A stretch of 64,000 bases of DNA from a bacterium (GTDB taxonomy: Bacteria > UBA8248). The stretch is taken from assembly GCA_965219955.1 (NCBI GenBank), contig OZ244799.1:1125915-1189914 (forward strand), given 5' to 3'. Positions 1-60,055 of this stretch are shown piece by piece (the first letter of the stretch is position 1; each line of letters begins with the position of its first letter). A program made the position numbers and the translations under genes. Below the pieces are notes generated by a model that ran no database searches, was not told the DNA's origin, and was given only the letters and a program-made list of their open reading frames with translations.

Positions 1-513
1 GCGGATATATATGGTAGCGTCCGTATCTTCCCCGGTTGGGAGAGAGAACGACGGGGTGAAAGGCCAAAGACAAAGGCGAAAATGGATTTCGTCGAACCCT
101 CCCGCATTGGTCGGCTCCGACACCGGAATGACGAACAAAACCACACCGTCCCATCCTGAATAGCGGCCCTTCGACAGGCTCAGGGCAGGCTCCCTCGACT
201 TCGCTCGGGACAAGCTCCGCCCCCACCTTCCTCATCCTGAGTAGCCGCCGAAGGCGGCGTATCGAAGGGCGAGGGGAGGCGAGCGCCTCGCGCCGGGCGA
301 GGGGCATCCTTCGATACGCGGCTTCGCCGCTACTCAGGATGAGGTGGAGAGAGGTTATTCAACAACCCCACAAGGGAGGGGGTAGGGGGGGGTGGTTTTC
401 AAGGCGAGAGCCTGCGCCGCCGCCCGGTTTCGGATTTTTGCCGGAATGACGGCGGAATTGGCAACGAAAGTGGGCGGACACATGGGTCCGCCCCTACAAA
501 AACATCACCCCCC
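1..513. repeat. Intergenic mosaic block of short hairpin-forming repeat modules (REP/NIME-like)
   Basis: Contains an interrupted 'aaaatggatt...ccggaatgac' module (~80-135). Long inverted repeat arms 'cctcatcctgagtagccgccgaaggcggcgtatcgaagg' (230-268) and 'ccttcgatacgcggcttcgccgctactcaggatgagg' (308-344). Palindrome 'gggcggacacatgggtccgcccctac' (~472-505). The same modules recur in at least 9 other intergenic tracts. Confidence 0.85.
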
Positions 514-1289: not shown

Positions 1290-1670
1290 GGGGGGGAATT
1301 TGATTTGGTGATTGCATGGCCGTTTCTCGCAGGGGCGGTTGAAAAAACCGAGGAGAGAGGACCTACTCCCCCCGTGAGGCTGTTGAAAAAGCCTCGATGA
1401 ACGAGGGATGGCGAATTATGGCCGCGCTCGCCGCGGATGAAAATTTCAACCGTAGGGGCGGGCCTCCGTGCCCGCCCGTATCGGGAATGTCCATGCCCGT
1501 AAGAAACCTCGGACAGGCACGGAGGCCTGTCCCTACGGGGAACAATTCGATGATTGGGATTCCCTCTCTTCTCAGTAGGGACTTTTTCAACAACCCCCTC
1601 AAGGGGGGAGTGAAGTCCCCTCCATACTCGATCGGGTCCCCCCCTTGGTGGCAACCCCCGAAATCTGCTA
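1290..1670. repeat. Intergenic mosaic repeat block
   Basis: GTTGAAAAA-loop hairpins (~1335, ~1378). 'gtaggggcgggcctccgtgcccgccc' (~1455-1480). 'ggacaggcacggaggcctgtccctac' (~1511-1536) followed by the 'gaacaattcgatgattgggattccc' module. 'tttttcaacaaccccctcaaggggggagtgaag' (~1586-1618). Confidence 0.8.
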
Positions 1671-1730: not shown

Positions 1731-2321
1731 ATGTCGAGAATCACGCCGGTACCCGATGACGCCGCTGGCGATCACGAACCGCTCTTTGAGCAATCGAGGG
1801 AAAGATGGGGCACGGTGCCCAGCTTCTACCGCGCCCTGGCCCATTCGCCCGAAGCCCTGCGCCACATCATGAGCCTGACGGTGGCCCTGCGGAGCCAGTG
1901 GCGGACCGATTCGGCCAGGATGCGCCTGATGCAGCTTGCGATCCTGACGCCCTCGCTCATCAACGACTGCGAGATATGAACGAACCACAACGTCAAGCTT
2001 GGTCAAGCTGCCGGATTGAACGACGAACACATCGCCCTGATAGTCGATGGCTGGGAGGGGAGCGACCTGTTCGATGAGCGCGAAAAGGCGGTGATCCGCT
2101 GGGCGACGGCCCTCACGAGAAACACGGCCGCCGCGGACGACGCCTGTTTCGCGCCGCTTAAACAATTTTTCAGCGAAAAGGACATCGTGGAGCTCACCCT
2201 GTTCACCTGCCTGTTCAACGCCTGGAACCGCCTGCAGGACGGCCTCCACAACCCGGTGGAGCCGCCCGATGACATCATCGGCTGGAAGGAGTGGGAGGAA
2301 GTGGCGCAGGTGTCGGGGTAG
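1731..2321 (+). CDS. AhpD/carboxymuconolactone-decarboxylase-family protein with in-frame TGA (candidate selenocysteine, CxxU) at 1977-1979
   Basis: Track ORFs 1674-1979 and 2016-2321 share one frame and are separated only by TGA. Read-through gives 'SLINDCEI[TGA]TNHNVKLGQAAGLNDEHIALIV', which fits the AhpD core N-x-C-x-x-C-x-x-x-H ... G-L-x-x-E-x-I. ATG at 1731 is preceded by GAGGAGG. Confidence 0.7.
1996..2009 (+). promoter_or_regulatory. Candidate bacterial SECIS apical hairpin (AGCUU-GGUC-AAGCU)
   Basis: 5-bp stem capped by a GGUC tetraloop starting 19 nt after the TGA at 1977. CAA.../...UUG flanks could form a lower stem. Confidence 0.45.
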
Positions 2322-3453: not shown

Positions 3454-3459
3454 GGATGG

Positions 3460-4020
3460 CGATGCTGCTCAGGTCGTCATTCCGGCAATCAATGCCGACC
3501 GAGGAGGGAGGGATTGCCCGGAATCCATTTTCAAGCAGAATGGCAATACGCTGGCTTTTCATCTCCTCGTCATCGGTGCGAATCAATAAAGAAAAAACAA
3601 AGGCAGAACAAATGGATTCCGGCTTTCGCCGGAATGACGGTGAGCGAGATATCGATTTGTAGGGGCGGTTCGCGAACCGCCCCTACGGGATACCCGACGC
3701 GAGGAGAAATCAACTCCCCCCTTGAGGGGGAGTCGAAGAGGCCGAGCGTTTTTTGCGAAGGCCGATTCGGTGGGGGGTGAAACGCGTTTTATCGCCACCC
3801 GAATTATCCCCCCCACCGAGTCAGCCTTCACCTGTCGGTTCGGCTTCCTCGACTCCCCCTCAAGGGGGGAGTGATTGGTTGGCGCTCTGCAAGGGAGGAG
3901 TAAGGTTTCATCCCTCCATGGTCGGCTCTATCTGTGGAATCACGAGATCAGGGCTTTTTCAACAGCCCCCTCAAGGGGGGAGTGAATATAAAACACCTCA
4001 AATCTTATTTCCCTCGAACC
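3460..4020. repeat. Intergenic mosaic repeat block including a variant MITE-like element (3476-3638)
   Basis: Interrupted left TIR 'gtcattccggcaatc...cccggaatccatttt' and intact right TIR 'aaatggattccggctttcgccggaatgac' (3610-3638). 'gtaggggcggttcgcgaaccgcccctac' (3660-3687). Three 'ctcccccctcaaggggggag' hairpins and one 'tttttcaacag' module. Confidence 0.8.
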
Positions 4021-4025
4021 CGACC

Positions 4026-11102: not shown

Positions 11103-12752
11103 TCATTTCAGTCTCGTTTCGATATCCGACTCGAAGTATTCGAAAAGCGAGAGATACGGAATCGGCGCGGCCTGGCCCAGGCCGCAGATGGATGTGTCCT
11201 TCATGGCCTCGCATATCTCGCGCATGGCGGGCAGCTCAGAGGCCAGCGCCTCGCCGCTTAAGGCCCGCTCCAGAAAGGCGGTGAGCTTCTCCGTCCCCAG
11301 GCGGCAGGGCACGCACTTGCCGCAGGATTCGTCCCTGAAAAAGCGCACCACGTTGTGGGCGAGCGCCACCATGTCCACCCCCTCGGGGATGACGACGAGC
11401 GCCCCGCTGCCCAGCATGCTGCCCGCCTCCTGCAGGGAGTCGAAGTCGTATGGAATGTCGACGAGGCTCGCGGGCAGAAACCCGCTGCTGGCCCCGCCGG
11501 GCGAGAACGCCTTCAGGTGCGCGCCAGCAGTCAGGCCGCCCGCGGGGCCTTCTATAATCTCCCGGATCGGCGTTCCGAACTCCACCTCGTAGACCCCCGG
11601 TTTCCTGACCGCGCCGCTCACGCCCACCACCTTGAAGCCTTGGCTCCCGTTCCGCCCGAAGGAGGTGAACCATTCCGCTCCTTTCTTGAGCACCGCCGGG
11701 ATGAGCGCGAAGGTCTCGACGTTGTTGATGAGGGTGGGCTTGCCGAAAAGACCCGCCGTGCCTGGGAAGGGGGGCTTGTCGCGGGGCTGGGCGCGCTTGT
11801 CCTCCAGGACTTCCAGGAGCGCCGTCTCCTCCCCGCAGATGTACCCGCCGGGACTCGTAAAGATTTCGAGGCTCGGTGTTGTTTTCGTGTCGATCAAGCG
11901 CGCCTTGCGCGCGCGCTCGATGGCGCGTCCCAGCTTTCTCGCCTGCGCGCCGTATTCATGGCGTATGTAGATGATGGCGCGCCCGGCCCCCACGGCCCGG
12001 CAGGCGATGAGTATTCCCTCGACGACGAGCTCGGGGTGCGAGTCCATGATGGCGCGGTCCTTGAACGTGCCCGGCTCGCTCTCATCGGCGTTGCAGACGA
12101 CGAATTTCTCTTTGGCCTGCGCGCTCAGGACGAAACGCCACTTGAGCCCTGCCGGAAAGCCGGCCCCGCCCATGCCGCGCAGGCCGCTCTCCTTCAGGAC
12201 ATCGATGACGCTTTCCGGCTTGTCGTTTTTCATCAACGCTCGCAGGACGCCGAAGGCCCCGTTCCTGCGGTAAGGGTTGATTCGCGATGCGTGCCTGAGT
12301 TTTTGCGCTCTCGAGGCGGGGCTTGGACGTCCATTTTTCCAGGACGCGATGATGCCCTGAAATTTTTCATCCGTGAGAGAGGAATAGATGCGGCCTTCTA
12401 TCTCGGCGGCGGGACCCTTGTCGCACCGGCCCAGGCAGGCGCAGCTTTCGGGGCGGAGGTCCCGGATTCCGGCGCGGCGGGCGAGATTATTCGCGTTGTC
12501 CAGCAACGCGGCGCCGCCAGCGAGCAGGCAGCTCATGTCCCGGCAGACCTGGACTTTCGGTTTCGGGGGTTTTTCCAGGTGAAAGTGCGGGAAAAAGCTG
12601 GCGATGCCGTAGGAATCGTAGATGGGAACGCCCAGGTCTTTGGAGACCTCGGTGATCGCTTCTTTCGAGAGATAGCCTTCTTCTTTCTGGCGGGAGAGCA
12701 GGGCCTCGATTTTGGCGGGAGACTTGTAGACCGTGGAAGCGTTTTCTGTCAT
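11103..12752 (-). CDS. NADH-dehydrogenase subunit F-like protein with fused NuoE-like 2Fe-2S domain (formate dehydrogenase beta, FdsB/FdsG-like)
   Basis: 'GLRGMGGAGFPAGLKWRF' FMN/NADH site, C-terminal 'ESCGKCVPCRLG' 4Fe-4S motif, and an N-terminal thioredoxin-like 'CRDMSC...CLGRCDKGPA'. 15 bp upstream of fdhA. Confidence 0.88.
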   Translation of the reverse strand: MTENASTVYKSPAKIEALLSRQKEEGYLSKEAITEVSKDLGVPIYDSYGIASFFPHFHLEKPPKPKVQVCRDMSCLLAGGAALLDNANNLARRAGIRDLRPESCACLGRCDKGPAAEIEGRIYSSLTDEKFQGIIASWKNGRPSPASRAQKLRHASRINPYRRNGAFGVLRALMKNDKPESVIDVLKESGLRGMGGAGFPAGLKWRFVLSAQAKEKFVVCNADESEPGTFKDRAIMDSHPELVVEGILIACRAVGAGRAIIYIRHEYGAQARKLGRAIERARKARLIDTKTTPSLEIFTSPGGYICGEETALLEVLEDKRAQPRDKPPFPGTAGLFGKPTLINNVETFALIPAVLKKGAEWFTSFGRNGSQGFKVVGVSGAVRKPGVYEVEFGTPIREIIEGPAGGLTAGAHLKAFSPGGASSGFLPASLVDIPYDFDSLQEAGSMLGSGALVVIPEGVDMVALAHNVVRFFRDESCGKCVPCRLGTEKLTAFLERALSGEALASELPAMREICEAMKDTSICGLGQAAPIPYLSLFEYFESDIETRLK

Positions 12753-12889
12753 CGAAATCTCCCCGTGAGCCGCGATGCCTCGTAAGTCATTCTAAATGTT
12801 CGCGCAACGAGGTGTCCAGCAATGCTTTGGCGATGCGTCGGGGAGCGCTGTTCGGGGTTGTTGAAAAAGGCCGGTGAGTGAGTGATCGA

Positions 12890-13720
12890 CGCGAGGGGGT
12901 GTAGGGACAGGTCGCGACCTCGGACAGGCGCAGAAGCCTGTCCGCTACGGCCGATTCGTTCACCAGCGATCCGCGCGAAACCTCCTCCTCATCCTGAGTA
13001 GGCGCGCAAGCGCCGTATCGAAGGATGGAAGACGCTACTTCCTCGGAGGCAAGAATTTCGCCCTTCGACAGGCTCAGGACAGGCCCCTTCGATACGCGGT
13101 TCCGCCGCTACTCAGGGTGAGGAAGGTGGGGGGCGGAGTTTGCCCCGAGCGAAGTCGATGGGCGGCTACCCAGGGTGAGGCGGAGCGGCGGGTTGCTCAG
13201 GGGGTCAAGCGCGAGCGATGAAGGGCTGTTGAAAAACCCTATCCGACCTTCAAGATTGTTCGCCGTAGGGACAGGCCTCCGTGCCTGTCCCTGTGAAGCG
13301 CAACCACGGGGATCGACATATCCGATACGGGCGGCCACGGGGGGCAGGGCGGCCTCTGGGGATCGCCCTGCTACGGGGGCATGCGGTTTTGTTCGTCATT
13401 CCGGCGAAAGCCGGAATCCATTTCCGCCTTTGCCTTTTCGTCCCCTCGTTTCGGACGTCTTTACTTACGGGCGGGGAGGAGCGGAATCGAACACAAAAAC
13501 GAAAGGCGAATTCTCTGGATTCCGCATACGGACGCAGCGCAACAACAAGGTCTTGGCGCACCTCCCGATGAAAAGTCAAAATGGATTCCGGCTTTCGCCG
13601 GAATGACGGCGGTTCTCCCGCATGGAGGGGCGGTTGAAAAACCCGGAGAGGGAAAATTTGTTTGCGTGTATGTCGGACATGTATGTCCGACATACATGCG
13701 ACCCTGATTTTTTTAACCCA
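12890..13720. repeat. Intergenic mosaic repeat block inside the largest gene-free tract (12753-13914)
   Basis: The block is built almost entirely from modules seen elsewhere. These include 'gtagggacagg...' palindromes, a 'cctcatcctgagtagg...ctactcagggtgagg' long inverted repeat (12987-13123), GTTGAAAAA hairpins, a MITE-like element, and the palindrome 'gtcggacatgtatgtccgac' (13672-13691). Confidence 0.85.
13395..13607. mobile_element. MITE-like non-autonomous element, copy 1 (213 bp, 29-bp terminal inverted repeats)
   Basis: Left TIR 'gtcattccggcgaaagccggaatccattt' and right TIR 'aaatggattccggctttcgccggaatgac'. The internal sequence is collinear with copies at 43981-44196 and 59502-59714. 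No ORF. Confidence 0.7.
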
Positions 13721-13914
13721 CTACATGGGCCGCATGTCTGTAGCGCTCCCAAGAAGGGAGCGCTACCTACAAAAACCGCCCCTAAAACCCTCGTTCATCA
13801 AGACTCTTTCAACAGGCCCGCGCCTTGCGCCTGCGGCTTGTGAGTCGCCGGGCTTGTCGAGTACATTGTGGGCCTTCACGCCGGGACGTTTCCTGCCGGA
13901 TCGAGGAGTTCGGT

Positions 13915-14454
13915 TTGACCGCTTTGGTTCGCTCTTTTCATTTCGCCCTTCTGGTGTCGTGGCTCGCCCTCACGCTGGGCGTGTGGTGGGCCGCGACGAA
14001 CTCGTTCGAGGCGTTCAACGCGGAGAAGAACCCGGTGGCTTCGAAGCTGTTCGAACCCGCCCCGGAAGCGAAAATCAAGGGCCGCATGGCCGCGAGAGAA
14101 GTCAACACCCGCATTTTCCGCGCCTGGAACCGCCTGCAACTCATGTTCTGCGTCTTGTTGTTCTGCTTTCTCTGGTGGGCGGGACGGATGAGCGGCCTGC
14201 CGCTCGCGCTGGCCGGGTGTCTCCTCCTCATCGTGGGCGTTCACGTCTTCTGGTTCACGCCGAAAATAGAAGCGCTCGGAAGAATTCTCACGAGCGCGGA
14301 GGTTTTGGGGAATGCGCCGTCCGTGCAGAGTGAATTCGGAAGCTACCACGGGGCGTATGTCATCACGGATATCTTGAAGGCCTGCATCCTGTTCGCGGCG
14401 ATATGGATTTCTCCGTGGCGAAAGATTTTCGGGAGCGAAACGCCGCGCGGGTGA
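13915..14454 (+). CDS. Hypothetical integral membrane protein (4 predicted TM helices)
   Basis: The hydrophobic part of track ORF 13825-14454. TTG at 13915 is preceded by GAGGAG. I did not recognise a family with confidence. Confidence 0.5.
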   Translation: MTALVRSFHFALLVSWLALTLGVWWAATNSFEAFNAEKNPVASKLFEPAPEAKIKGRMAAREVNTRIFRAWNRLQLMFCVLLFCFLWWAGRMSGLPLALAGCLLLIVGVHVFWFTPKIEALGRILTSAEVLGNAPSVQSEFGSYHGAYVITDILKACILFAAIWISPWRKIFGSETPRG

Positions 14455-29578: not shown

Positions 29579-29639
29579 AACCCGGGCGTAATTTTTGGAA
29601 TTACATGCCTGATTCGCAATGCCCTCATCAGGAGGGACT

Positions 29640-29885
29640 GGTTCGGTTTATGGAGGCGACCGGGAAGGGACTTTACTCCCCCTCGAGGGGGCCTGTTGAA
29701 AAAGTCCTCCGCGAGAAGGGAGGGAATCCCGATCATCGAATTGTTTGCCGTAGGGACAGGCCTCCGTGCCTGTCCTGATTCGAACCATCCTGCAAAAGGA
29801 CAACCACGGAGGGTTGTCCCTACTACAACCACAACACCGACTGACGAGGGTTTTTTCAACAGCCCCTCAAGGGGGGAGTGATTAA
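29640..29885. repeat. Intergenic mosaic repeat block
   Basis: Hairpin 'ctccccctcgaggggg', a GTTGAAAAA module, 'gggaatcccgatcatcgaattgtttgccgtagggacaggcctccgtgcctgtcc', 'ggacaaccacggagggttgtccctac', and 'tttttcaacagcccctcaaggggggagtga'. Confidence 0.8.
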
Positions 29886-30110
29886 GGACTGGCGGGTGTG
29901 GCGTAGTGGCATCTCCGAGAAGTCGTTGCGGGACGGTCCCGAGGAGGGCAGGAGAATCTCAAAGGATTGTCCTGCTGCGAAATGTGATCAAACCCGACCG
30001 ATGAGGGGCCGTTGGAAAAGCCCCCCTGACAAGGGGGTTGGGAGGTTGGCTGGTCAAAGATATAATTCCCCTGATTTTTCAGAAGGTCGATTTTGTCGGG
30101 CAAGGAGAAA

Positions 30111-39024: not shown

Positions 39025-39029
39025 AAAAG

Positions 39030-39780
39030 CCCTCACATCTCTCTCATCCTGAGTAGCGGCGGAGCCGCGTATCGAAGGTCAAACGTGATTGATGAATGAG
39101 CGATTGCTCTCGTCACGGCGCAAGATCCTGGCCCTTCGATGCAAACGCTCCTTCATCGGGGTTGTTGAAAAAATCCGAGGAGAGAGGAATCACTCCCCCT
39201 CAAGGGCTTGTTGAAAAACCCCCTCATCCCGAGTAGGCGCGCTTGCGCGCCGTATCGAGGGACGAGGGAGAGCCGGGAGCCTGGCCTGAGATTGTCGAAG
39301 GGGAGCGCCCTTCGATACGCCGCCTTCGGCGGCTACTCAGGGTGAGGCAGCGTGGTTTTGTTCGTCATTCCGGCGAAAGCCGGAATCCATTTTGACTTTT
39401 GCTTTTCGCCTTGATTCATGCTCGACAAAGCCGCAATCAAACGCCTGAACGCATCCGCCCTCATCGGCTCCGGACTCCGCATTCTCTCCCGTCCCGAGCG
39501 GGGCTGACGCCGGAATAACGATCAAAGACGAAAGGCGAAAATGGATTCCGGCTTTCGCCGGAATGACGGTGGTTTTCCCGCATTGAGGGGCTTTTTCAAC
39601 AGGCCCCTCAAGGGGGGAGTGAAATTCAAAAACTTGCGCTCAACCAAAATCGCTCCACGGAACTTTTTCAACAGCCCCTCATCAGTCGCGTTTGACCTCC
39701 GGCGGCTACTCAGGGTGAAGAAAGAGACGTTGGCGATTTCCAGGGGGGGATCCATACGGTGTTTTTTCAACAACCTCGGT
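39030..39780. repeat. Intergenic mosaic repeat block including a variant MITE-like element (39364-39567)
   Basis: Within the gene-free tract 39025-39957. Contains 'ctcatcctgagtagcggcggagccgcgtatcgaagg', three GTTGAAAAA hairpins, and a long inverted repeat at 39225-39350. Also a TIR-bounded element with different internal sequence and two 'tttttcaacag...' modules. Confidence 0.85.
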
Positions 39781-39957
39781 AAGCTGAGCCGTCCTCGGCG
39801 CTATCGCGTGTCAGGCTTTGTTTTTCATCGTAAGGCCGTGAGGTTTCTTGCTTTTTGTCCTGCGGTGTGGTTTAAGGTTTTGTCATACGGATATTTTTAA
39901 TTCCAGGGGTGGTTGCGAGGCTGAGAAGGCGGGACTATTTCATTCATTTTCCCTCCC

Positions 39958-43780: not shown

Positions 43781-43799
43781 GGCTTGGGGTTGTTGGAAG

Positions 43800-44250
43800 A
43801 GTCCCTCATTGGCCGATTCGATCTGTAGGGACAATCCCTCCTCGAGGTTGTCCTGCCCTCCGTGGTTGTCCTTTGTCGGGTATCGGACAGGCACGGAGGC
43901 TTGTCCCTACGGGCAATACGGAAGCCGCACGACGCCGTTACTTCGCAACCGCAGCGTCCGCCCGCCTTTTGGTTTTGATCGTCATTCCGGCCTTGCGCCG
44001 GAATCCATTTTTGCGCCTTTTGCCTTTTCGCTTTCTCGCTCGGACGTTTTTACGCCCGGACGGGGAGGATCGGAATCGAACGCAAAAACGAAAGGCGAAT
44101 TCTCTGGATTCCGCATCCAGACACCACGCAACAACAAGGTCATGCCAGCCCGCCAGGTGAAAAGTCAAAATGGATTCCGGCTTTCGCCGGAATGACGGGG
44201 GGAGGGTTTGCGGCTTTCGTAGGGGCGGACCTGCGTGTCCGTATATGGAC
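43800..44250. repeat. Intergenic mosaic repeat block including MITE-like element copy 2 (43981-44196)
   Basis: 'gtagggacaatccctcctcgaggttgtcc...ggacaggcacggaggcttgtccctac', a 216-bp TIR-bounded element collinear with 13395-13607, and 'gtaggggcggacctgcgtgtccg'. Confidence 0.85.
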
Positions 44251-45660
44251 GCCCACGAGAATGCAAGCGGTTTTTGGGGAGGGTTCGGCGCAAAGCGGTT
44301 CGGCTCAGTCGTATATCCGGCCTCTTCGTTGCGGCGCTTTACTCTGGCCGCGGGCCCGTATGGAGATAGGTGGACCGGGTCCAAATCGCCCTCGTGAGCT
44401 CGGTGGCTCTGGACACGCATCTGGTTTTCCCGATCCCGTCTCGATGACCGTTTGCCCTTACCCTTCCTCCGGCCTGCTCACATTCCTCCCGGCTCTATCC
44501 GTGCGCCCGCCGCTCAGGCGAGGGGCGCCGGCTCCCTGTAGACATCCTTGTTCCGCATCAGCGCCCACGCGATGCGCGCCATCCGGTTCGCCAGCGCCAC
44601 CGCCACCACCTTCCTCGGCTTGCGCGCCAGCATCCGCGCCAGCCACGGACACGGCGGCTTCCGGCGACGCCCCGCCCAGCGTATCTCCGACATCGCGCCC
44701 GATATCAACAGACGCCTCACGTCGCGCTGGCCCATCTTCGACATGCCCCCCAGACGGGGCTTGCCCCCCGTGGAGTGCTGCCGGGGAACCAGACCCAGCC
44801 AGGCCGAGAAGTCACGGCCCCGACGGAAGTTCTCCACCGGCGGCGCGAACGCCCGGATCGCCGACGCCGTAATCGGACCAACACCCGGGATGCTCATCAG
44901 ACGCCGCGCCTCCTCGTCCGCGTATGCGCTCGCCCGGAGCCGTCCGGTCAACTCCCGGACCTTCGCATCGAGGCCGCCAATCTGGGCGAGCAGAATCCCG
45001 CCCAACTCGCGGACCTCCTCGGGCAGGCCCGATTCCGCTCCCCGAACCGCCGCCGCCAGCCGTGTGAGGCCCACGGGCCCTTGCCGCTCGACGACCCCGA
45101 ACTCCGCCAGGTGGCTGCGCAGCGCGTTGCGCGCCTGCGTGCGCTGACCCACCAGCAAATCCCGCGTGCGGTACTCCATCCCACACCCCTGCTGCGCTTC
45201 GCTCTTCACCGCCACGAAGCGCATCGTCGCCCGGGTGGCCGCCTCGCAAATGGCCTCCGCATCCGCCGCGTCGTTCTTGTGGCGCTTCACGTAGGGCTTC
45301 ACGTAGACCGGCGGCATGAGCCGAACCTCATGGCCGAGCTTGCCGACCTCGCGCCCCCAGTAGTGCGCGCTCGCGCACGCCTCCATCGCCACCACGCATC
45401 GAGGCTGCGACGACAGAAACTCCAGCACCTTCGCCCGCGTCAGCTTCTTGCGGAACGCGACCCGCCCGTCCGCCCACGCGCCGTGGAGTTGAAAACTGTG
45501 TTTCGCCAAGTCGACCCCGATGATGTAGACTCCTCCCATGGTCGTCTCCTTCCGGGCGGTGTGTGACGTCGTCTCGCCACATTCTAATCCGCCGGAAGGA
45601 GGCGTCCACCCCATCGCCCAATCGCTCGGACGAAAACACCGAAAGCGGGAGCACACACAG
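44240..45660 (-). mobile_element. IS110-family insertion sequence (boundaries approximate)
   Basis: The transposase CDS is flanked by unique, non-repeat sequence at 44250-44513 and 45540-45659. The right edge abuts a truncated palindromic repeat at 45660-45685. No terminal inverted repeats are expected for this family. Confidence 0.55.
44514..45539 (-). CDS. IS110 family transposase (DEDD recombinase)
   Basis: 'IIGVDLAKHSF', 'VVAMEACASAHYW', 'KNDAADAEAI', and the C-terminal 'MSIPGVGPITASAIRAF' motif. ATG 45539 follows AGGAGA. Confidence 0.9.
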   Translation of the reverse strand: MGGVYIIGVDLAKHSFQLHGAWADGRVAFRKKLTRAKVLEFLSSQPRCVVAMEACASAHYWGREVGKLGHEVRLMPPVYVKPYVKRHKNDAADAEAICEAATRATMRFVAVKSEAQQGCGMEYRTRDLLVGQRTQARNALRSHLAEFGVVERQGPVGLTRLAAAVRGAESGLPEEVRELGGILLAQIGGLDAKVRELTGRLRASAYADEEARRLMSIPGVGPITASAIRAFAPPVENFRRGRDFSAWLGLVPRQHSTGGKPRLGGMSKMGQRDVRRLLISGAMSEIRWAGRRRKPPCPWLARMLARKPRKVVAVALANRMARIAWALMRNKDVYREPAPLA

Positions 45661-45751
45661 TCAGACATATATGTCTAACCCCTACGCCGAACCACTCAAT
45701 TGGGGCTTTTACAACACCTCCCCCTATGCCGCCTGGGAAAATCTTTACCGG

Positions 45752-48215: not shown

Positions 48216-48289
48216 GCGCGCGCGCGGAATCCCGCGCGGTCCCAAGGAAATCCCCAAGCGCCCATCCCGCGCGGACCCGAAGAAACCCT

Positions 48290-48640
48290 TAAGCGTAAGC
48301 GCCCATCCCGCGCGCAGGCCCCAGCGAATCCTCATCCCGAGTAGGCGCGCTTGCGCGCCGTATCGAGGGACGCACGCCCACAACAAGTTCAGGCCAAGTC
48401 CTTCGATACAAACGCTCCTTTCTCAGTCGCGTTTTACCTTCGGCGGCCACTCAGGGTGAGGGGTGTCGGGCAATAGCGAAGCCTGCCCCGAGCGAAGTCG
48501 AGGGGCCGCTACTCGGGGTGAAGGAGTGTTGTCCAGGGCGTAGGGGAGATTTCCTCGCTCCGGAGGGAACGCTCCAATGAATCGCCGGGCAGGCCCGGTG
48601 CCTGTCCCTGCCAGGGCGAGGACGGGGATGAGGGTGTGCA
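48290..48640. repeat. Intergenic mosaic repeat block
   Basis: 'cctcatcccgagtaggcgcgcttgcgcgccgtatcgaggg' ... 'cggcggccactcagggtgagg', 'gccccgagcgaagtcgagggg', and 'ggcaggcccggtgcctgtccctgcc'. Confidence 0.8.
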
Positions 48641-48644
48641 GGTT

Positions 48645-52736: not shown

Positions 52737-53573
52737 CTATTGCGCCTGCACGATGGGCGTGTCGTCGCGGTTGCCCCATTCCTTCCAGGAGCTCATGTAG
52801 TTTTTTACCCTGGGGTAGTCCAGGAGCCGCAGGGCGAAGTAACCGTGCGCCGCACGGTAGCCCGTCTGTCAGTAGGCGGTCACTTCTTTTTCGGGCGTGA
52901 CGCCGATGGCCTCGAACTGCGCGCGAAGCTCATCGGCTGGCTTCATCTCGCCCTCGGGCGTCAGGTGCTGGAGCCACTCCTGCCAGACCGCGCCGGGGAT
53001 GATGCCGCTGCGCCTGGCGCGCGTGCTGCGCCCCTCCCACTCCTCAACCGAGCGGGTGTCGAGCAGCATGTGGTTGTCGTCCTCGATGGCCGCCAGAACG
53101 TCCTCGCGCGTGGCGAGTCGGCCCGGCTCGAACGCCATCTCGAATGCGGTGGCCTTGGGCACTTCGGCGTCGCGCGTCGTCTCGTAGCCCGCCCGCTCCC
53201 AGGCGCGGTAGCCGCCGTCGAGCACGTGGACGTCCTTGTGGCCGAAAAGCTCCAGCATCCAGAAGCCGCGCACGCTCGTGTTGCCGACGAAGTCGTCGTA
53301 GAAGACGATGGTGTTCTCGAACGACACCCCGCGGTTCCCCAGCAGAAACGCCCACATGGCGAAGAAATTCCTCAAGGGCGCCTCGTCCGAATCGTCGCTG
53401 TTCACGCCGTAGACGTCGAAGTGCCGCGCGCCGGGGATGTGGCCCATCGTGTAGCGCTCGCCGGGGCGCGTGTCGATGATTCTTAAACCAGGGTCGTCCA
53501 TGCGTGTTTTAAGTTGTTCGGCCGACCAGAGCAGGCCGGGGTTCGCATACCCTTTCGGGTTGTCGCTCGTCAT
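52737..53573 (-). CDS. Two-domain rhodanese-like sulfurtransferase with in-frame TGA (candidate selenocysteine) at the active-site Cys position (codon 52869-52871)
   Basis: Track ORF 52869-53573 ends '...PEKEVTAY' at TGA. The same frame continues 'QTGYRAAHGYFALRLLDYPRVKNYMSSWKEWGNRDDTPIVQAQ' to TAG at 52737. This gives the rhodanese loop Y-[C/U]-Q-T-G-Y-R-A and a normal 278-aa length. Confidence 0.75.
52842..52858 (-). promoter_or_regulatory. Candidate bacterial SECIS hairpin (ACCGUGC-GGC-GCACGGU)
   Basis: Perfect 7-bp stem with a GGC apical loop. The stem starts 10 nt after the UGA, and the loop G residues sit at positions 21-22 counted from the U of UGA. Confidence 0.5.
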
Positions 53574-59388: not shown

Positions 59389-59394
59389 GTGATT

Positions 59395-59990
59395 CGTCCG
59401 GGGCTCGTGGGCGGAAGCCCACGGCCCCGTGCGGGTCTGTTGAAAAACCCCATCGAAGAGGAAGTTGAGCCTGCGCTTCCGCCCGGTATCGGGTCTTGGC
59501 CGTCATTCCGGCGAAAGCCGGAATCCATTTTCGCCTTTGCCTTTTCGCTTCCTCGCTCGGATACCTTTACGCCTGGGCGGGTAGGAACAGAATCGAATAT
59601 AAAATCGAAAGGCGAATTCTCTGAATTCCGCATCTGGATGCCGCGCAACAACAAGGTCGTGGCCGTCCTGCCCAATAAAAAGTCAAAATGGATTCCGGCT
59701 TTCGCCGGAATGACGGCAGTGGTCAATTCCGACCGGGGATGACTTTTTCAACTGGCCCCTATCGGGGTTGCTGAAAGTCTCCTTGGGGAAGGAGGGAATC
59801 CCGATCATCGAATTGTTTATCGTAGGGACAGGCCTCCGTGCCTGTCCTGCCCCCCGTGGTTGTCCTTCGTTAGGACAGGCACGGAGGCCTGTCCCTACAA
59901 AACCACTGCGCCTGCGCCGCGTGAACCTCCATGCCGCCGACCCCGAAAGGGCTTTTCAACAGACCCGTCGGTCAGGATTCGCCGACAGCC
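59395..59990. repeat. Intergenic mosaic repeat block including MITE-like element copy 3 (59502-59714)
   Basis: Hairpin ggggc(t)cgtgggc-ggaa-gcccacggcccc (59403-59431), a GTTGAAAAA hairpin, and a 213-bp TIR-bounded element. Also 'gggaatcccgatcatcgaattgtttatcgtagggacaggcctccgtgcctgtcc...ggacaggcacggaggcctgtccctac'. Confidence 0.85.
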
Positions 59991-60055
59991 GGATTACAGC
60001 GAAACAAGGACTTTACGCCGGATATTTTAATCGCCCCCTACGCGCCTCGCCCCGT

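What the first reader, a model, noticed from the sequence alone, without database searches (positions are those of the whole stretch)
12753..13914. About 10% of the window is gene-free intergenic DNA assembled from a small set of hairpin-forming repeat modules
Ten intergenic tracts are built almost wholly from recurring 20-60 bp modules in varying order and orientation. The tracts are 1-513, 1225-1730, 2322-2658, 3454-4025, 12753-13914, 29579-30110, 39025-39957, 43781-44513, 48216-48644 and 59389-60055, about 6.4 kb in total. Family A is 'attccggcgaaagccggaat'. Family B is 'gtagggacaggcctccgtgcctgtcc' with its mirror 'ggacaggcacggaggcctgtccctac'. Family C is 'gtaggggcggac-N-gtccgcccctac'. Family D is 'cctcatcctgagtagcNNcg...cgtatcgaagg', paired with its inverse as 110-140 bp long hairpins (230-344, 12987-13123, 39225-39350, 48322-48470). 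Family E is 'ctcccccctcaaggggggag'. Family F is 'gtcagacatatatgtctgac'. This density and the tract lengths of up to 1.16 kb are unusual for a bacterial chromosome. The architecture recalls Neisseria intergenic mosaic elements, where dRS3-type ATTCCC-N8-GGGAAT repeats bound variable units. Here family A is ATTCCGG-N6-CCGGAAT. The tracts separate functionally linked genes, for example the Tm-1-like pair. They also generate many spurious ORFs in the track, with peptides such as WIPAFAGMT, VIPAKAGIH and FFNSPLKGGV.
Basis: seen in the sequence. Interest (0 to 1): 0.62.

Follow-up and report, generated by a model that had tools for sequence, protein, structure and literature searches.

The report
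Hairpin-seeking MITEs build intergenic mosaics
The gene-free tracts are piles of small transposon relics: MITEs that share the ends of a resident IS1182-family insertion sequence which inserts into DNA hairpins, layered with REP-like GTAGGG hairpins; this is real, genus-restricted selfish DNA in an uncultured sponge-associated bacterium, and a rich variant of a known kind of element.

Summary
The modules are real, intergenic and genome-wide: short-module DNA makes up at least 4.1% of a 4.28-Mb single-contig genome. The focal tract is supported by contigs from an independent sponge metagenome.

GGGGYTGTTGAAAAA (725 core copies, against 4-31 for controls) is the terminal inverted repeat of a resident IS1182-family IS with four intact copies. 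There are 176 inward-facing end pairs against 20 outward-facing. The units sit in hairpin loops and carry short target duplications, so hairpin-rich elements nest into one another.

A second layer is a GTAGGG+palindrome (REP-like) superfamily with 713 copies. RAYT-like genes with such hairpins beside them exist in congeners, but none exists in this genome.

All families are confined to one genus, at 0-413 copies per species. The ends and the transposase co-occur.

Orthologous spacers show the growth. The focal one is 106-221 bp and repeat-free in all six short ones examined, but about 1.1 kb here. The Tm-1-pair spacer is 36-51 bp in 13 of 15 congeners, but 514 bp here.

The comparison with Neisseria NIME/dRS3 elements does not hold as membership. 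Interest is moderate.

The parts
12753..12853 (.). Unique nuoF-proximal leader/promoter block; the ancestral part of the spacer
   Evidence: Not repeated in the genome. The 'cattctaa...gtgtccagc' block is conserved in relatives, including those with repeat-free spacers.
12854..12868 (+). IS1182-type terminal repeat GGGGTTGTTGAAAAA (left-end orientation)
   Evidence: Matches the ends of the four resident IS1182-family copies. Annotated.
12900..12951 (.). Degenerate pair of GTAGGG-type (REP-like) hairpins
   Evidence: BLAST depth up to 96 copies. Belongs to the GTAGGG+palindrome superfamily.
12987..13123 (.). Family D foldback: CCTCATCCTGAGTAGG...CGTATCGAAGG paired with its inverse
   Evidence: D1+/D2+/D2-/D1- annotated; depth above 150. 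D-pair cores sit inside 34 units bounded by GTTGAAAAA ends.
13165..13180 (-). Extra solitary D arm
13223..13236 (+). IS1182-type terminal repeat GGGCTGTTGAAAAA
13265..13290 (+). Family B hairpin GTAGGGACAGGCCTCCGTGCCTGTCC (REP-like; cargo of IS1182-type MITEs)
   Evidence: 278 copies, 212 of them exact. 40% lie between inward-facing ends, against 26% for random repeat DNA.
13395..13607 (.). 213-bp A-unit (subfamily L1) with 30-bp inverted ends GTCATTCCGGCGAAAGCCGGAATCCATTTT
   Evidence: 108 inward pairs against 4 outward; size classes of about 135 and 213 bp. Ends are 99.3% identical and interiors 84.9%.
13627..13641 (+). IS1182-type terminal repeat (GGGGCGGTTGAAAAA, one mismatch); opens a unit of about 190 bp
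13667..13694 (.). F-type palindrome GTATGTCGGACATGTATGTCCGACATAC; core of that unit
13805..13819 (-). Degenerate IS1182-type terminal repeat (TCTTTCAACAGGCCC); the only closing end in the focal tract
13820..13914 (.). Unique DUF4149-proximal block; ancestral
   Evidence: Contains 'cttgtcgagtacattg', which is conserved in relatives with short spacers.
230..344 (.). D foldback, followed by an IS1182-type end at 355-364 (-)
1337..1612 (.). Two opening IS1182-type ends (1337, 1381), a GTAGGGG hairpin, B (-) at 1511, a closing end at 1583 and an E hairpin at 1594
3712..3873 (.). E/U80 unit: inverted E hairpins enclosing the 80-bp U80 core
   Evidence: Consensus of 22 such units.
29675..29880 (.). 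One B-core MITE (ends at 29,694 and 29,852) sitting in a split E hairpin: ACTCCCCCTCGAGGGGG | element | CCCCTCAAGGGGGGAGTG
   Evidence: The whole tract is absent from all 15 congeners compared; 13 of them have a 36-51 bp spacer.
39163..39772 (.). Nest: two opening ends, a D foldback (39,222-39,347), an A-unit (39,364-39,567) and three closing ends
44240..45685 (-). IS110-family element (8 copies in the genome) abutting an F-type palindrome
Evidence: NCBIfam NF033542, 302 bits. Multi-copy segment whose copies abut F-type GTAGGGG...CATACATG palindromes.
48330..48461 (.). Solitary D foldback with no IS1182-type end nearby
59438..59753 (.). A-core MITE: IS1182-type end, A-unit (59,502-59,714), closing end. 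A B doublet (59,822-59,898) and another closing end (59,952) follow.

Best explanation
The tracts are graveyards and nests of non-autonomous mobile DNA. They were built by at least two mobilisation systems, and both revolve around DNA hairpins.

**System 1 (shown).** A resident IS1182-family insertion sequence is about 1.55 kb long and present in four intact copies. It encodes a 470-aa DDE transposase. Its ends are GGGGYTGTTGAAAAA and TTTTTCAACARCCCC. The same ends bound several MITE subfamilies of 120-500 bp. Each subfamily carries one kind of hairpin core:
- a B doublet;
- a D foldback;
- an A-unit;
- E/U80.

**Targeting (shown statistically; mechanism inferred from IS1272).** The IS and its MITEs insert into hairpin loops and duplicate the loop plus the inner stem. 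The preferred target is a C6-loop-G6 'E' hairpin. Every inserted element brings new hairpins, so insertions attract further insertions. A short ancestral spacer therefore grows into a mosaic.

**System 2 (shown in congeners, inferred for this genome).** The GTAGGG+palindrome hairpins are REP/REPIN-type elements of a RAYT (Y1 HUH transposase). The families involved are B, C, F and the perfect palindromes 11 and 12. Congeners still encode the RAYT, but this genome has lost it.

**Family B (inferred).** B appears to have been captured as MITE cargo and amplified by the DDE system.

**Other players.**
- IS110 elements also land in F-type palindromes.
- A-units keep near-perfect ends of their own. 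Their mobilising enzyme was not found.

**Persistence.** The elements survive where they do least harm. They sit between genes, most often between convergent genes, and show no preferred orientation.
For: **The IS ends are the abundant motif.**
- Conserved sequence of the four IS copies starts at GGGG(C/T)TGTTGAAAAACCCC and stops at GGGCTTTTTCAACAGGCCC.
- The transposase scores 347 bits on NCBIfam NF033551 (IS1182 family; cut-off 270). It has the DUF772, DDE_Tnp_1_6 and DDE_Tnp_1 domains.
- GTTGAAAAA occurs 725 times, against 4-31 for composition-matched controls.

**MITE signature.**
- Inward-facing end pairs at 100-1000 bp number 176, against 20 outward-facing.
- Units carry single core types: B 42, D 34, A 15, E+U80 20. 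Their clustered consensus sequences are clean.

**Target duplication and hairpin targeting.**
- Flanking direct repeats of at least 8 nt occur at 24% of units, against 4.5% for mismatched ends.
- Explicit cases include CTCATCGG, GAGAAAGG, CGTAGGC and CGAAAG.
- Hairpins on the left flank average C5.5/G3.9 and on the right C3.1/G4.9. Informative loops are direct in 12 cases and inverted in 4.
- Reconstructed empty sites are hairpins. Stems of at least 5 bp lie outside the duplication at 14% of sites, against 1.5% at random non-coding positions.
- IS1272, of the same IS family, is documented to target stem-loops. Its published model includes duplication of the loop or of the whole stem-loop (PMC5678879).

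**Comparative evidence.**
- The ends are confined to one genus: 338 copies here, 31-413 in 16 of 22 congeners, none in 6, and at most 2 in other genera.
- All 6 end-free congeners lack any trace of the transposase.
- Of the 17 end-bearing genomes (16 congeners plus this one), 14 have a match, ranging from up to 33 copies down to single fragments. The other 3 are assemblies of 190-470 contigs.
- In two other genera of the same class, 3 of the 4 end matches lie within about 60 bp of a match to this transposase. The fourth lies about 810 bp from the nearest match. Full-length homologues there are 63-65% identical.
- B and D occur in exactly the same 16 congeners. Spearman rho between end counts and A, B and D counts is 0.89-0.93.

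**Insertion polymorphism.**
- The focal spacer is 106-221 bp in 8 relatives; all six of those examined are repeat-free. It is 355-896 bp in 9 relatives, and the four examined carry different module sets. It is about 1.1 kb here.
- The SDR|ABM spacer ranges from 92 to 575 bp.
- The Tm-1-pair spacer is 36-51 bp in 13 of 15 congeners and 514 bp here.

**Selfish-DNA pattern.** More than 93% of copies are intergenic. Repeats hit 39% of convergent gaps, against 17% of tandem gaps. No family shows strand bias.

**REP layer.**
- 713 GTAGGG sites are followed by a perfect hairpin of at least 7 bp, in at least 12 stem classes.
- RAYT-like genes in G001, G007 and G012 score E=5e-20 on NF047646 and pass the PF01797 cut-off. 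The same kinds of hairpin lie next to them.
- Families 11 and 12 are solitary: only 3-14% lie between IS ends. They also occur in G001 and G007, which lack the IS.
Against: - Only 30-40% of B, D and A copies lie in intact end pairs. Many ends are solitary or degenerate, so much of the mosaic may have been reshaped by deletion or recombination, or arose in other ways.
- A recognisable target duplication is seen at only 24-36% of units. Its exact length is ambiguous, because the G/C runs of the ends overlap the target stems.
- The direct-versus-inverted loop test rests on 16 informative cases. The fixed-window version gave 89 against 57 (p=0.01).
- No autonomous element with A-type ends was found. 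A ends occur at low numbers in two congeners that lack the IS1182 system, so at least that family is not explained.
- D foldbacks can stand alone, as at 48,330-48,461.
- About 230 bp of tract 29,579-30,092 is unique DNA of unknown origin.
- Three end-bearing congeners (G004, G006, G016) hold only degraded transposase fragments.
- No transposition has been observed. Everything is inferred from sequence.
Confidence: 0.75

Rival explanations
1. A pure REP/BIME-type system. On this view all modules are REP or REPIN elements made and moved by a RAYT (Y1 HUH transposase), and the mosaics are BIME-like clusters.
For: B, C, F and families 11 and 12 are GTAG+palindrome elements. They are extragenic and often form inverted doublets. 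Congeners have RAYT-like genes with such hairpins beside them.
Against: - This genome has no RAYT, by profile search and by tblastn with the congeners' proteins. Yet it has the largest B population of the genus, 76% identical to the master sequence. That is the opposite of the decay reported after RAYT loss (bioRxiv 10.1101/2021.07.10.451892).
- B counts follow the IS1182 ends, not RAYT presence. B is absent from the RAYT-bearing G001 and G007 and abundant in the RAYT-less G000, G014 and G020.
- A-units, D foldbacks, U80 and the GTTGAAAAA ends have no GTAG signature.
Confidence: 0.1
2. A mosaic of the Neisseria NIME/dRS3 type. Family A hairpins would be recombination sites that bound exchangeable units and serve as attachment sites for a dedicated integrase or phage.
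For: ATTCCGG-N6-CCGGAAT resembles ATTCCC-N8-GGGAAT in form. The outer flanks of A-units come from a small set of recurring 17-40-mers in several combinations. IS110-family recombinases are present.
Against: - A ends occur as inward-facing pairs (108 against 4) at two fixed spacings. They enclose only about five interior types, not arrays of diverse units.
- The recurring outer flanks are explained as parts of larger end-bounded MITEs.
- The IS110 copies abut F-type palindromes, not A.
- The sequence does not match the dRS3 consensus.
Confidence: 0.05
3. Host-selected regulatory elements. The hairpins would be terminators, mRNA-stabilising or processing sites, or small-RNA genes kept because they benefit the cell.
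For: - Repeats are enriched between convergent genes, where terminators lie.
- The modules appear in metatranscriptome contigs from sponges and corals.
- The A ends and the B master sequence are very well conserved.
- U80 contains a TATAAT-like hexamer.
Against: - No family shows orientation bias relative to transcription.
- Six congeners do without any of them.
- Orthologous spacers are short and repeat-free in many relatives.
- No Rfam family matches.
- The metatranscriptome contigs are undirected and cannot be assigned to a locus, and DNA carry-over cannot be excluded.
Confidence: 0.07
4. An assembly artefact: collapsed or chimeric repeats in a metagenome-assembled genome.
For: The genome is a MAG with an estimated 5% contamination. 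Short-read contigs break inside the modules.
Against: - The modules are spread over the whole single-contig genome.
- The same families occur in 16 independently assembled congeners.
- Contigs at single-copy depth from an independent sample cover several junctions of the focal tract.
Confidence: 0.01

Closest known systems
IS1182-family insertion sequences that target stem-loops (IS1272 of Staphylococcus; PMC5678879) and MITEs derived from DDE insertion sequences in general
   Same: - The transposase passes the curated IS1182-family model.
- It has terminal inverted repeats.
- Insertion goes into palindromic/hairpin targets.
- Short non-coding derivatives carry the same ends, in high copy number and in intergenic positions.
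   Different: - IS1272 is reported to replace the target stem-loop without a target duplication. Here the loop and inner stem appear duplicated on both sides. The IS1272 paper draws that pathway as an alternative but does not report observing it.
- No MITE superfamily with several unrelated hairpin cores is described there. My literature searches turned up no report of one for an IS1182-family IS.
REP / REPIN elements with their RAYT (Y1 HUH) transposase; BIME clusters of enterobacteria
   Same: - A GTAG-type 5' signature followed by an imperfect or perfect palindrome.
- Extragenic position, inverted doublets and several stem classes per genome.
- RAYT-like genes with matching hairpins beside them in congeners.
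   Different: - This genome has no RAYT, yet has the largest and most homogeneous B population of its genus.
- B travels inside DDE-type MITEs.
- The RAYT-like proteins of the congeners score just below NCBI's equivalog cut-off (72 bits against 80).
Correia elements (CREE/NEMIS) of Neisseria
   Same: The A-units share the architecture: 100-200-bp units with inverted ends of about 26-30 bp, two size classes that differ by an internal segment, hundreds of intergenic copies and no known resident transposase. (The Correia features are from my own knowledge and were not looked up here.)
   Different: The sequences are unrelated. No TA target duplication was seen. The A ends are themselves perfect hairpins. 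A-units are often embedded in larger MITEs.
Neisseria intergenic mosaic elements (NIMEs) bounded by dRS3 repeats
   Same: Intergenic mosaics of short repeat units, and a 20-bp palindromic module of similar form.
   Different: The consensus is different. The A modules are paired ends of a few unit types, not boundaries between many exchangeable units. There is no evidence of site-specific recombination at A.
IS110/IS621-type elements that insert into REP-like palindromes
   Same: The eight IS110-family copies here abut F-type GTAGGG...CATATATG palindromes.
   Different: They are a minor contributor to the tracts, and I did not analyse them further.

Membership tests
MITE (non-autonomous derivative of a DDE insertion sequence) | Short (under about 600 bp), non-coding, multi-copy | tested here: met
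   176 end-bounded units of 100-700 bp, totalling 50.4 kb; clusters of 34, 22 and 18 related copies.
MITE (non-autonomous derivative of a DDE insertion sequence) | Terminal inverted repeats identical to those of an autonomous IS in the same genome | tested here: met
   The IS copies begin and end with GGGGYTGTTGAAAAA / TTTTTCAACARCCCC. The units carry the same ends. A unit in relative L002 also shares about 35 bp of subterminal IS sequence.
MITE (non-autonomous derivative of a DDE insertion sequence) | Target-site duplication | tested here: met
   Direct repeats of at least 8 nt at 24% of units, against 4.5% for the null. Individual 6-10-nt duplications are listed. The exact length is not fixed.
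MITE (non-autonomous derivative of a DDE insertion sequence) | Presence/absence polymorphism at orthologous sites | tested here: met
   Three spacers compared across up to 17 relatives.
IS1182 family | Transposase matches the curated family model above its cut-off | tested here: met
   NF033551: 346.9 bits, cut-off 270. PF05598, PF13751 and PF01609 also match.
IS1182 family | Insertion into palindromic/stem-loop targets, reported for some members | tested here: met
   All four IS copies and most units lie in C-run/loop/G-run hairpins. Reconstructed empty sites are hairpins. Literature.
IS1182 family | Catalytic activity on these ends | not testable with these tools
   Needs a transposition or binding assay.
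REP/REPIN-RAYT system | GTAG-type 5' motif followed by a palindrome; extragenic; hundreds of copies | tested here: met
   713 GTAGGG sites followed by a perfect hairpin of at least 7 bp. More than 93% of GTAGGGGCGG copies and 96% of B copies are intergenic.
REP/REPIN-RAYT system | Inverted doublets (REPINs) | tested here: met
   The B-core consensus holds two inverted GTAGGG hairpins. B+/B- at 59,822/59,873. A doublet lies downstream of the G001 RAYT-like gene.
REP/REPIN-RAYT system | A cognate RAYT gene in the same genome | tested here: not met
   No PF01797 match at E<=0.001, while the control genomes did match. tblastn with the congeners' RAYT-like proteins gave no real hit.
REP/REPIN-RAYT system | RAYT gene flanked by its own REPs | tested here: met
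   Met in congeners only. GTAGGGG hairpins lie on both sides of the gene in G007 and G012, and downstream of it in G001. The proteins score 72 and 63 bits on NF047646 (cut-off 80) and pass the PF01797 cut-off.
Neisseria NIME/dRS3 | dRS3 consensus ATTCCC-N8-GGGAAT | tested here: not met
   Family A is ATTCCGG-N6-CCGGAAT inside GTCATTCCGGCGAAAGCCGGAATCCATTTT.
Neisseria NIME/dRS3 | The repeats bound many different exchangeable units arranged in arrays | tested here: not met
   108 inward pairs at two fixed spacings, with about five interior types.
Neisseria NIME/dRS3 | Use as an integration site by a phage or recombinase | not tested
   No prophage junctions at A were looked for.
Correia element (CREE) | Sequence homology to the Neisseria element and a TA target duplication | tested here: not met
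   The A-unit ends and flanks show no TA duplication. The resemblance is in architecture only. No alignment to a Correia sequence was made, because none is held here.

The most novel reading that the evidence does not exclude
REP/REPIN-type hairpins (family B) have escaped dependence on their RAYT. They were captured as cargo inside MITEs of an IS1182-family element. A DDE transposase that targets hairpins therefore both amplifies them and uses them as landing pads. This makes a self-reinforcing 'hairpin begets hairpin' process that inflates short spacers into kilobase mosaics, in a genome that has lost its RAYT.
Probability: 0.45. Interest if true: 0.6.

Novelty: new variant of a known kind. 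Interest (0 to 1): 0.42.

Why it matters
- **Annotation.** About 4% of this genome, and comparable amounts in 16 sister species, can now be labelled as defined element families. Without that, the tracts are left as orphan ORFs such as '...VIPAKAGIH...' and unexplained gaps.
- **IS1182 biology.** The lineage offers a natural data set of hundreds of insertions for the little-studied hairpin-directed insertion of IS1182-family transposases. In particular it illustrates the 'loop/stem-loop duplication' outcome, which the IS1272 paper only drew as a possibility.
- **REPIN theory.** If family B really is amplified as MITE cargo in a RAYT-less genome, it is a counter-example to the view that REPIN populations decay once their RAYT is lost. 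It would also be a case of one mobile-element system rescuing another.
- **Symbiont genome evolution.** Counts run from 0 to about 400 copies among congeners, and genomes average about 3.2 Mb without the ends against 4.0 Mb with them. That makes the genus a usable model for how selfish DNA inflates symbiont genomes and splits operon-like gene pairs.

Tried and rejected
- **RAYT as mobiliser in this genome.** Rejected: there is no Y1 transposase.
Rejected. The left 'stem' GGGG is 85-89% conserved, and the motif is the IS end.
- **An autonomous IS with A-type ends.** All A-end pairs 0.5-4 kb apart enclose ordinary genes or further A-units. One encloses an IS1380 plus a second IS1182-type IS that had landed inside a short A-unit. 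No parent was found.
- **E hairpins as part of the element's inverted ends rather than target.** Disfavoured: loops are direct more often than inverted (12 against 4; 89 against 57), and the C/G runs are asymmetric. The numbers are small.
- **A paralogous empty site for the MITE at 29,694.** The outer sequence of that tract is unique in the genome, so there is none.
- **Rfam and tRNA scans of the window.** Nothing found.
- **RNA evidence.** Only undirected metatranscriptome contigs from related organisms were available, so this was uninformative about function.
- **Literature on these elements in sponge symbionts.** None found.
- **Correction to my own notes.** They state 10 short and 7 long focal spacers. 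Recounting one search gives 8 short (106-221 bp) and 9 long (355-896 bp).
Full report
**Setting**

The window is bases 1,125,915-1,189,914 of a 4,283,615-bp single-contig genome with 60.9% G+C. The closest public records, at 75-93% identity for the NuoF-like protein, are uncultured MAGs. Several are labelled 'Nitrospinota bacterium' and have sponge-metagenome bin names. Many are single-chromosome long-read assemblies. The sequencing runs that hold the focal tract are sponge, coral and marine metagenomes.

**Observation**

Their edges coincide with my rough gene calls.

The families are real and genome-wide:
- A: 284 copies;
- B: 278 copies, 212 of them exact;
- D1: 412 copies;
- D2: 278 exact copies;
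- F: 17 copies.

14-mers present at least 8 times cover 4.96% of the genome, and the window lies at the 89th percentile. After removing long multi-copy segments, short-module DNA is 174 kb, or 4.06% of the genome. Long multi-copy segments, mostly IS elements, add 243 kb, or 5.67%.

In the focal tract only the two gene-proximal ends are unique: 12,753 to about 12,850 and about 13,820-13,914.

An independent sponge metagenome supplies contigs at single-copy depth over several junctions of the tract. It is therefore not an assembly artefact.

**Family A**

A copies occur as inward-facing pairs 108 times and outward-facing only 4 times. Their spacings fall in two sharp classes, about 110 and 187 bp. 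Once oriented, they are units of about 135 and 213 bp with about five interior types. All share the end GTCATTCCGGCGAAAGCCGGAATCCATTTT. In subfamily L1 the ends are 99.3% identical and the interiors 84.9%.

The sequence outside the ends is also recurrent for 40 nt or more. Several flank classes run out to a GTTGAAAAA motif.

**The organising motif**

De novo seed-and-extend clustering showed that GTTGAAAAA-containing families are the most numerous. The 9-mer occurs 725 times, against 4-31 for shuffled controls. It usually appears as GGGGYTGTTGAAAAAGCCC.

Among the long multi-copy segments, one family of four copies of about 1.55 kb is conserved exactly from GGGG(C/T)TGTTGAAAAACCCC to GGGCTTTTTCAACAGGCCC. 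It encodes a 470-aa protein with DUF772, DDE_Tnp_1_6 and DDE_Tnp_1 domains. That protein scores 347 bits on NCBI's IS1182-family equivalog model, whose cut-off is 270. The four copies are 96-100% identical and have open frames.

The abundant motif is therefore the terminal inverted repeat of a resident, apparently intact, IS1182-family IS.

**MITEs**

Inward-facing GTTGAAAAA...TTTTTCAAC pairs at 100-1000 bp number 176, against 20 outward-facing. The 176 strict units total 50.4 kb and usually carry one kind of core:
- B: 42 units;
- a D pair: 34;
- an A pair: 15;
- E+U80: 20.

They cluster into families with clean consensus sequences. Within the genome, copies that have both inward-facing ends within 250 bp are enriched for three cores: B 40%, D 35% and U80 49%, against 26% for random repeat DNA.

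The window's tracts resolve into such units:
- a single B-core MITE at 29,694-29,861;
- an A-core MITE at 59,438-59,753;
- a nest at 39,163-39,772;
- in the focal tract, three opening ends (12,854; 13,223; 13,627) and one degenerate closing end (13,805), around a D foldback, a B hairpin, a 213-bp A-unit and an F-type palindrome.

**Insertion sites**

All four IS copies and most units are embedded in C-run/loop/G-run hairpins. The runs are asymmetric: C5.5/G3.9 on the left and C3.1/G4.9 on the right. That is the pattern expected if insertion into the loop of a C6-loop-G6 hairpin duplicates the loop and the inner stem. Where loops are informative, they are direct repeats in 12 cases and inverted in 4. 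A fixed-window edit-distance test gives 89 against 57, p=0.01.

Insertions into ordinary sequence show plain duplications, such as CTCATCGG, GAGAAAGG, CGTAGGC and CGAAAG. Direct repeats of at least 8 nt flank 24% of units, against 4.5% when ends are mismatched.

Reconstructed empty sites are mostly hairpins. Even outside the duplicated segment, stems of at least 5 bp occur at 14% of sites, against 1.5% at random non-coding positions.

This agrees with the literature. IS1272, an IS1182-family member, targets stem-loops in a structure-dependent way. Its authors' model includes pathways in which the loop or the whole stem-loop is duplicated. ISfinder's curators are also cited there as noting that some IS1182 members target palindromes (PMC5678879).

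Each MITE carries several hairpins, so insertions create new targets. This explains the nesting. The step from 'hairpin targets' to 'self-reinforcing growth' is inference.

**Distribution relative to genes**

More than 93% of the copies of every family are intergenic. Repeats occupy 39% of convergent gaps, 24% of divergent gaps and 17% of tandem gaps. No family shows strand bias relative to transcription. This fits tolerated selfish DNA, not strand-specific RNA elements.

**Comparative evidence**

Across 41 genomes the IS end is confined to one genus:
- 338 copies here;
- 31-413 copies in 16 of 22 congeners;
- none in 6 congeners;
- at most 2 in any other genus, and none for the reversed-pattern control.

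The six end-free congeners have no trace of the transposase. Of the 17 end-bearing genomes, counting this one:
- 9 have full-length open copies, up to 33;
- 2 have copies cut by contig ends or carrying a stop;
- 3 have only degraded fragments (G004, G006, G016);
- 3 have none, and these are assemblies of 190-470 contigs.

In G030 and G032, which belong to other genera of the same class, 3 of the 4 end matches lie within about 60 bp of a match to this transposase. The fourth, in G032, lies about 810 bp from the nearest match. Full-length homologues there are 63-65% identical.

B and D occur in exactly the same 16 congeners. Spearman rho between end counts and A, B and D counts is 0.89-0.93. Genomes with the ends average 3.96 Mb. 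Those without average 3.16 Mb, leaving out one 8-Mb bin.

**Orthologous spacers**

Synteny around the focal tract is conserved. The nuoF|DUF4149 spacer is 106-221 bp in 8 relatives and 355-896 bp in 9, against about 1.1 kb here. All six short spacers I examined are repeat-free and keep only the two promoter-proximal blocks. The four long ones I examined hold different combinations of the same families.

By that mapping, the three shortest spacers belong to three of the repeat-free genomes (G010, G019, G001).

The convergent SDR|ABM spacer runs from 92 bp with no repeats to 575 bp.

The Tm-1-like pair is 36-51 bp apart in 13 of 15 congeners. That includes the closest one, which has a 98% identical neighbour gene and a 41-bp spacer. 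Here the pair is 514 bp apart.

**The REP layer**

B, C, F and the perfect palindromes I call families 11 and 12 all begin with GTAGGG and continue as a hairpin. The genome has 713 such sites, in at least 12 stem classes.

This genome has no Y1 transposase. Congeners G001, G007 and G012, among others, encode RAYT-like proteins of 180-290 aa. These carry an HUH-like MPNH(L/V)HG motif and a WQRSFYDR(I/V)IR motif. They best match NCBI's 'REP-associated tyrosine transposase' model (E=5e-20; 72 bits, against a cut-off of 80) and pass the Pfam Y1_Tnp cut-off. GTAGGGG hairpins of the same kinds lie on both sides of the gene in G007 and G012, and downstream of it in G001. tblastn with these proteins finds nothing real in the window's genome.

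Families 11 and 12 behave like classical REPs:
- only 3% and 14% of their copies lie between IS ends, and 70% and 58% have no end nearby;
- family 11 also occurs in G001 and G007, which lack the IS1182 system.

Family B behaves differently:
- it is absent from G001 and G007 although they have a RAYT-like gene;
- it is most abundant in this RAYT-less genome, at 278 copies with 76% identical to the master sequence;
- its counts track the IS ends.

The REPIN literature reports shrinkage and decay after RAYT loss (bioRxiv 10.1101/2021.07.10.451892). The simplest reading is that B doublets were captured in an IS1182 MITE and are amplified by the DDE enzyme. This is inference, and I give it about 45%.

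**Unresolved**

- The enzyme that moves A-units is unknown. Their ends are far better conserved than their interiors. A few copies exist in two IS1182-free congeners, and no A-ended autonomous element exists here.
- D foldbacks can be solitary.
- About 230 bp of the Tm-1 tract is unique DNA of unknown origin.
- Only a minority of cores sit in intact end pairs, so deletion and recombination have probably reshaped many tracts.

**Comparison and verdict**

The elements are MITEs of an IS1182-family IS plus REP-type hairpins. These are known kinds. Three things go beyond what I could find described:
- one IS end bounds several unrelated hairpin cores;
- hairpin-loop insertion with loop duplication occurs on a scale of hundreds of copies;
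- REP doublets are apparently carried as MITE cargo in a RAYT-less genome.

The NIME/dRS3 analogy fails its defining tests. The architecture of A-units is closer to Correia elements, which I recall from general knowledge.

I rate this a new variant of a known kind, of moderate interest.

Noticed in passing
window 44240-45685; genome copies listed: Eight copies of an IS110-family element (NCBIfam 'IS110 family RNA-guided transposase', 302 bits). The copies abut F-type palindromes such as TGTAGGGGCCGCATACATGCGGCCC, which suggests REP-targeted insertion.
   Followed up: partly
genome 944476-947970 (outside the window): A short A-unit holds a 3.36-kb insert made of an IS1380-family IS (403 bits; 13 copies in the genome) and a second, different IS1182-family transposase gene (327 bits). 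This is another case of an IS landing inside the small repeats.
   Followed up: partly
L056 (G012:C1:982700-984600), ORF 804-1400: The RAYT-like ORF of this congener contains a low-complexity insert, ...GTGPRACPDAGQPRGAGQPRGVGQPRGV.... In tblastn this insert matches several sites in the window's genome. It may be REP-derived sequence within, or fused to, the RAYT gene.
   Followed up: no
window 29597-29690 and about 29880-30010: About 230 bp flanking the B-core MITE in the Tm-1-pair spacer is unique in the genome. It is absent from the 36-51 bp spacers of 13 congeners. Its origin is unexplained.
   Followed up: partly
G006:C8, spacer of the Tm-1-like pair (L072): In this congener the same spacer is 579 bp. 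It holds unrelated, AT-richer sequence that seems to encode a small membrane-like ORF, not the repeat modules.
   Followed up: no
genome-wide; consensus (families 10 and 33): The 80-bp 'U80' core (113-116 copies) contains GGTGGGGGGTATAATG, which has a perfect TATAAT hexamer. It might act as an outward or internal promoter.
   Followed up: no
genome-wide; consensus (family 18): An AT-rich 53-bp repeat, ATTTATCGAAAAACCCCGTGAATTTATCTAATTTTATCGAATTTTTCGGAAAT, has about 51 copies. It lies far from the IS1182-type ends (median 1.5 kb; none inside units) and is unlike the other families.
   Followed up: no
G015 (same genus, 8.0 Mb, 70 contigs): This is the largest genome of the genus by far, yet it has none of the repeat families. 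It may be a merged bin or a genuinely different lineage.
   Followed up: no
window 12500-14200 in runs X24-X26: Sponge and coral metatranscriptome assemblies contain A ends, D arms and B hairpins at high word depth. One contig runs from the nuoF 5' end to the first IS-type end (12,684-12,869). The strand and the locus of origin cannot be determined.
   Followed up: partly
window 1731-2321 and 52737-53573: Earlier notes of this scan report two selenoprotein genes (AhpD-like and rhodanese) that are split by gene callers. The first one borders tract 1225-1730. I did not re-examine them.
   Followed up: no
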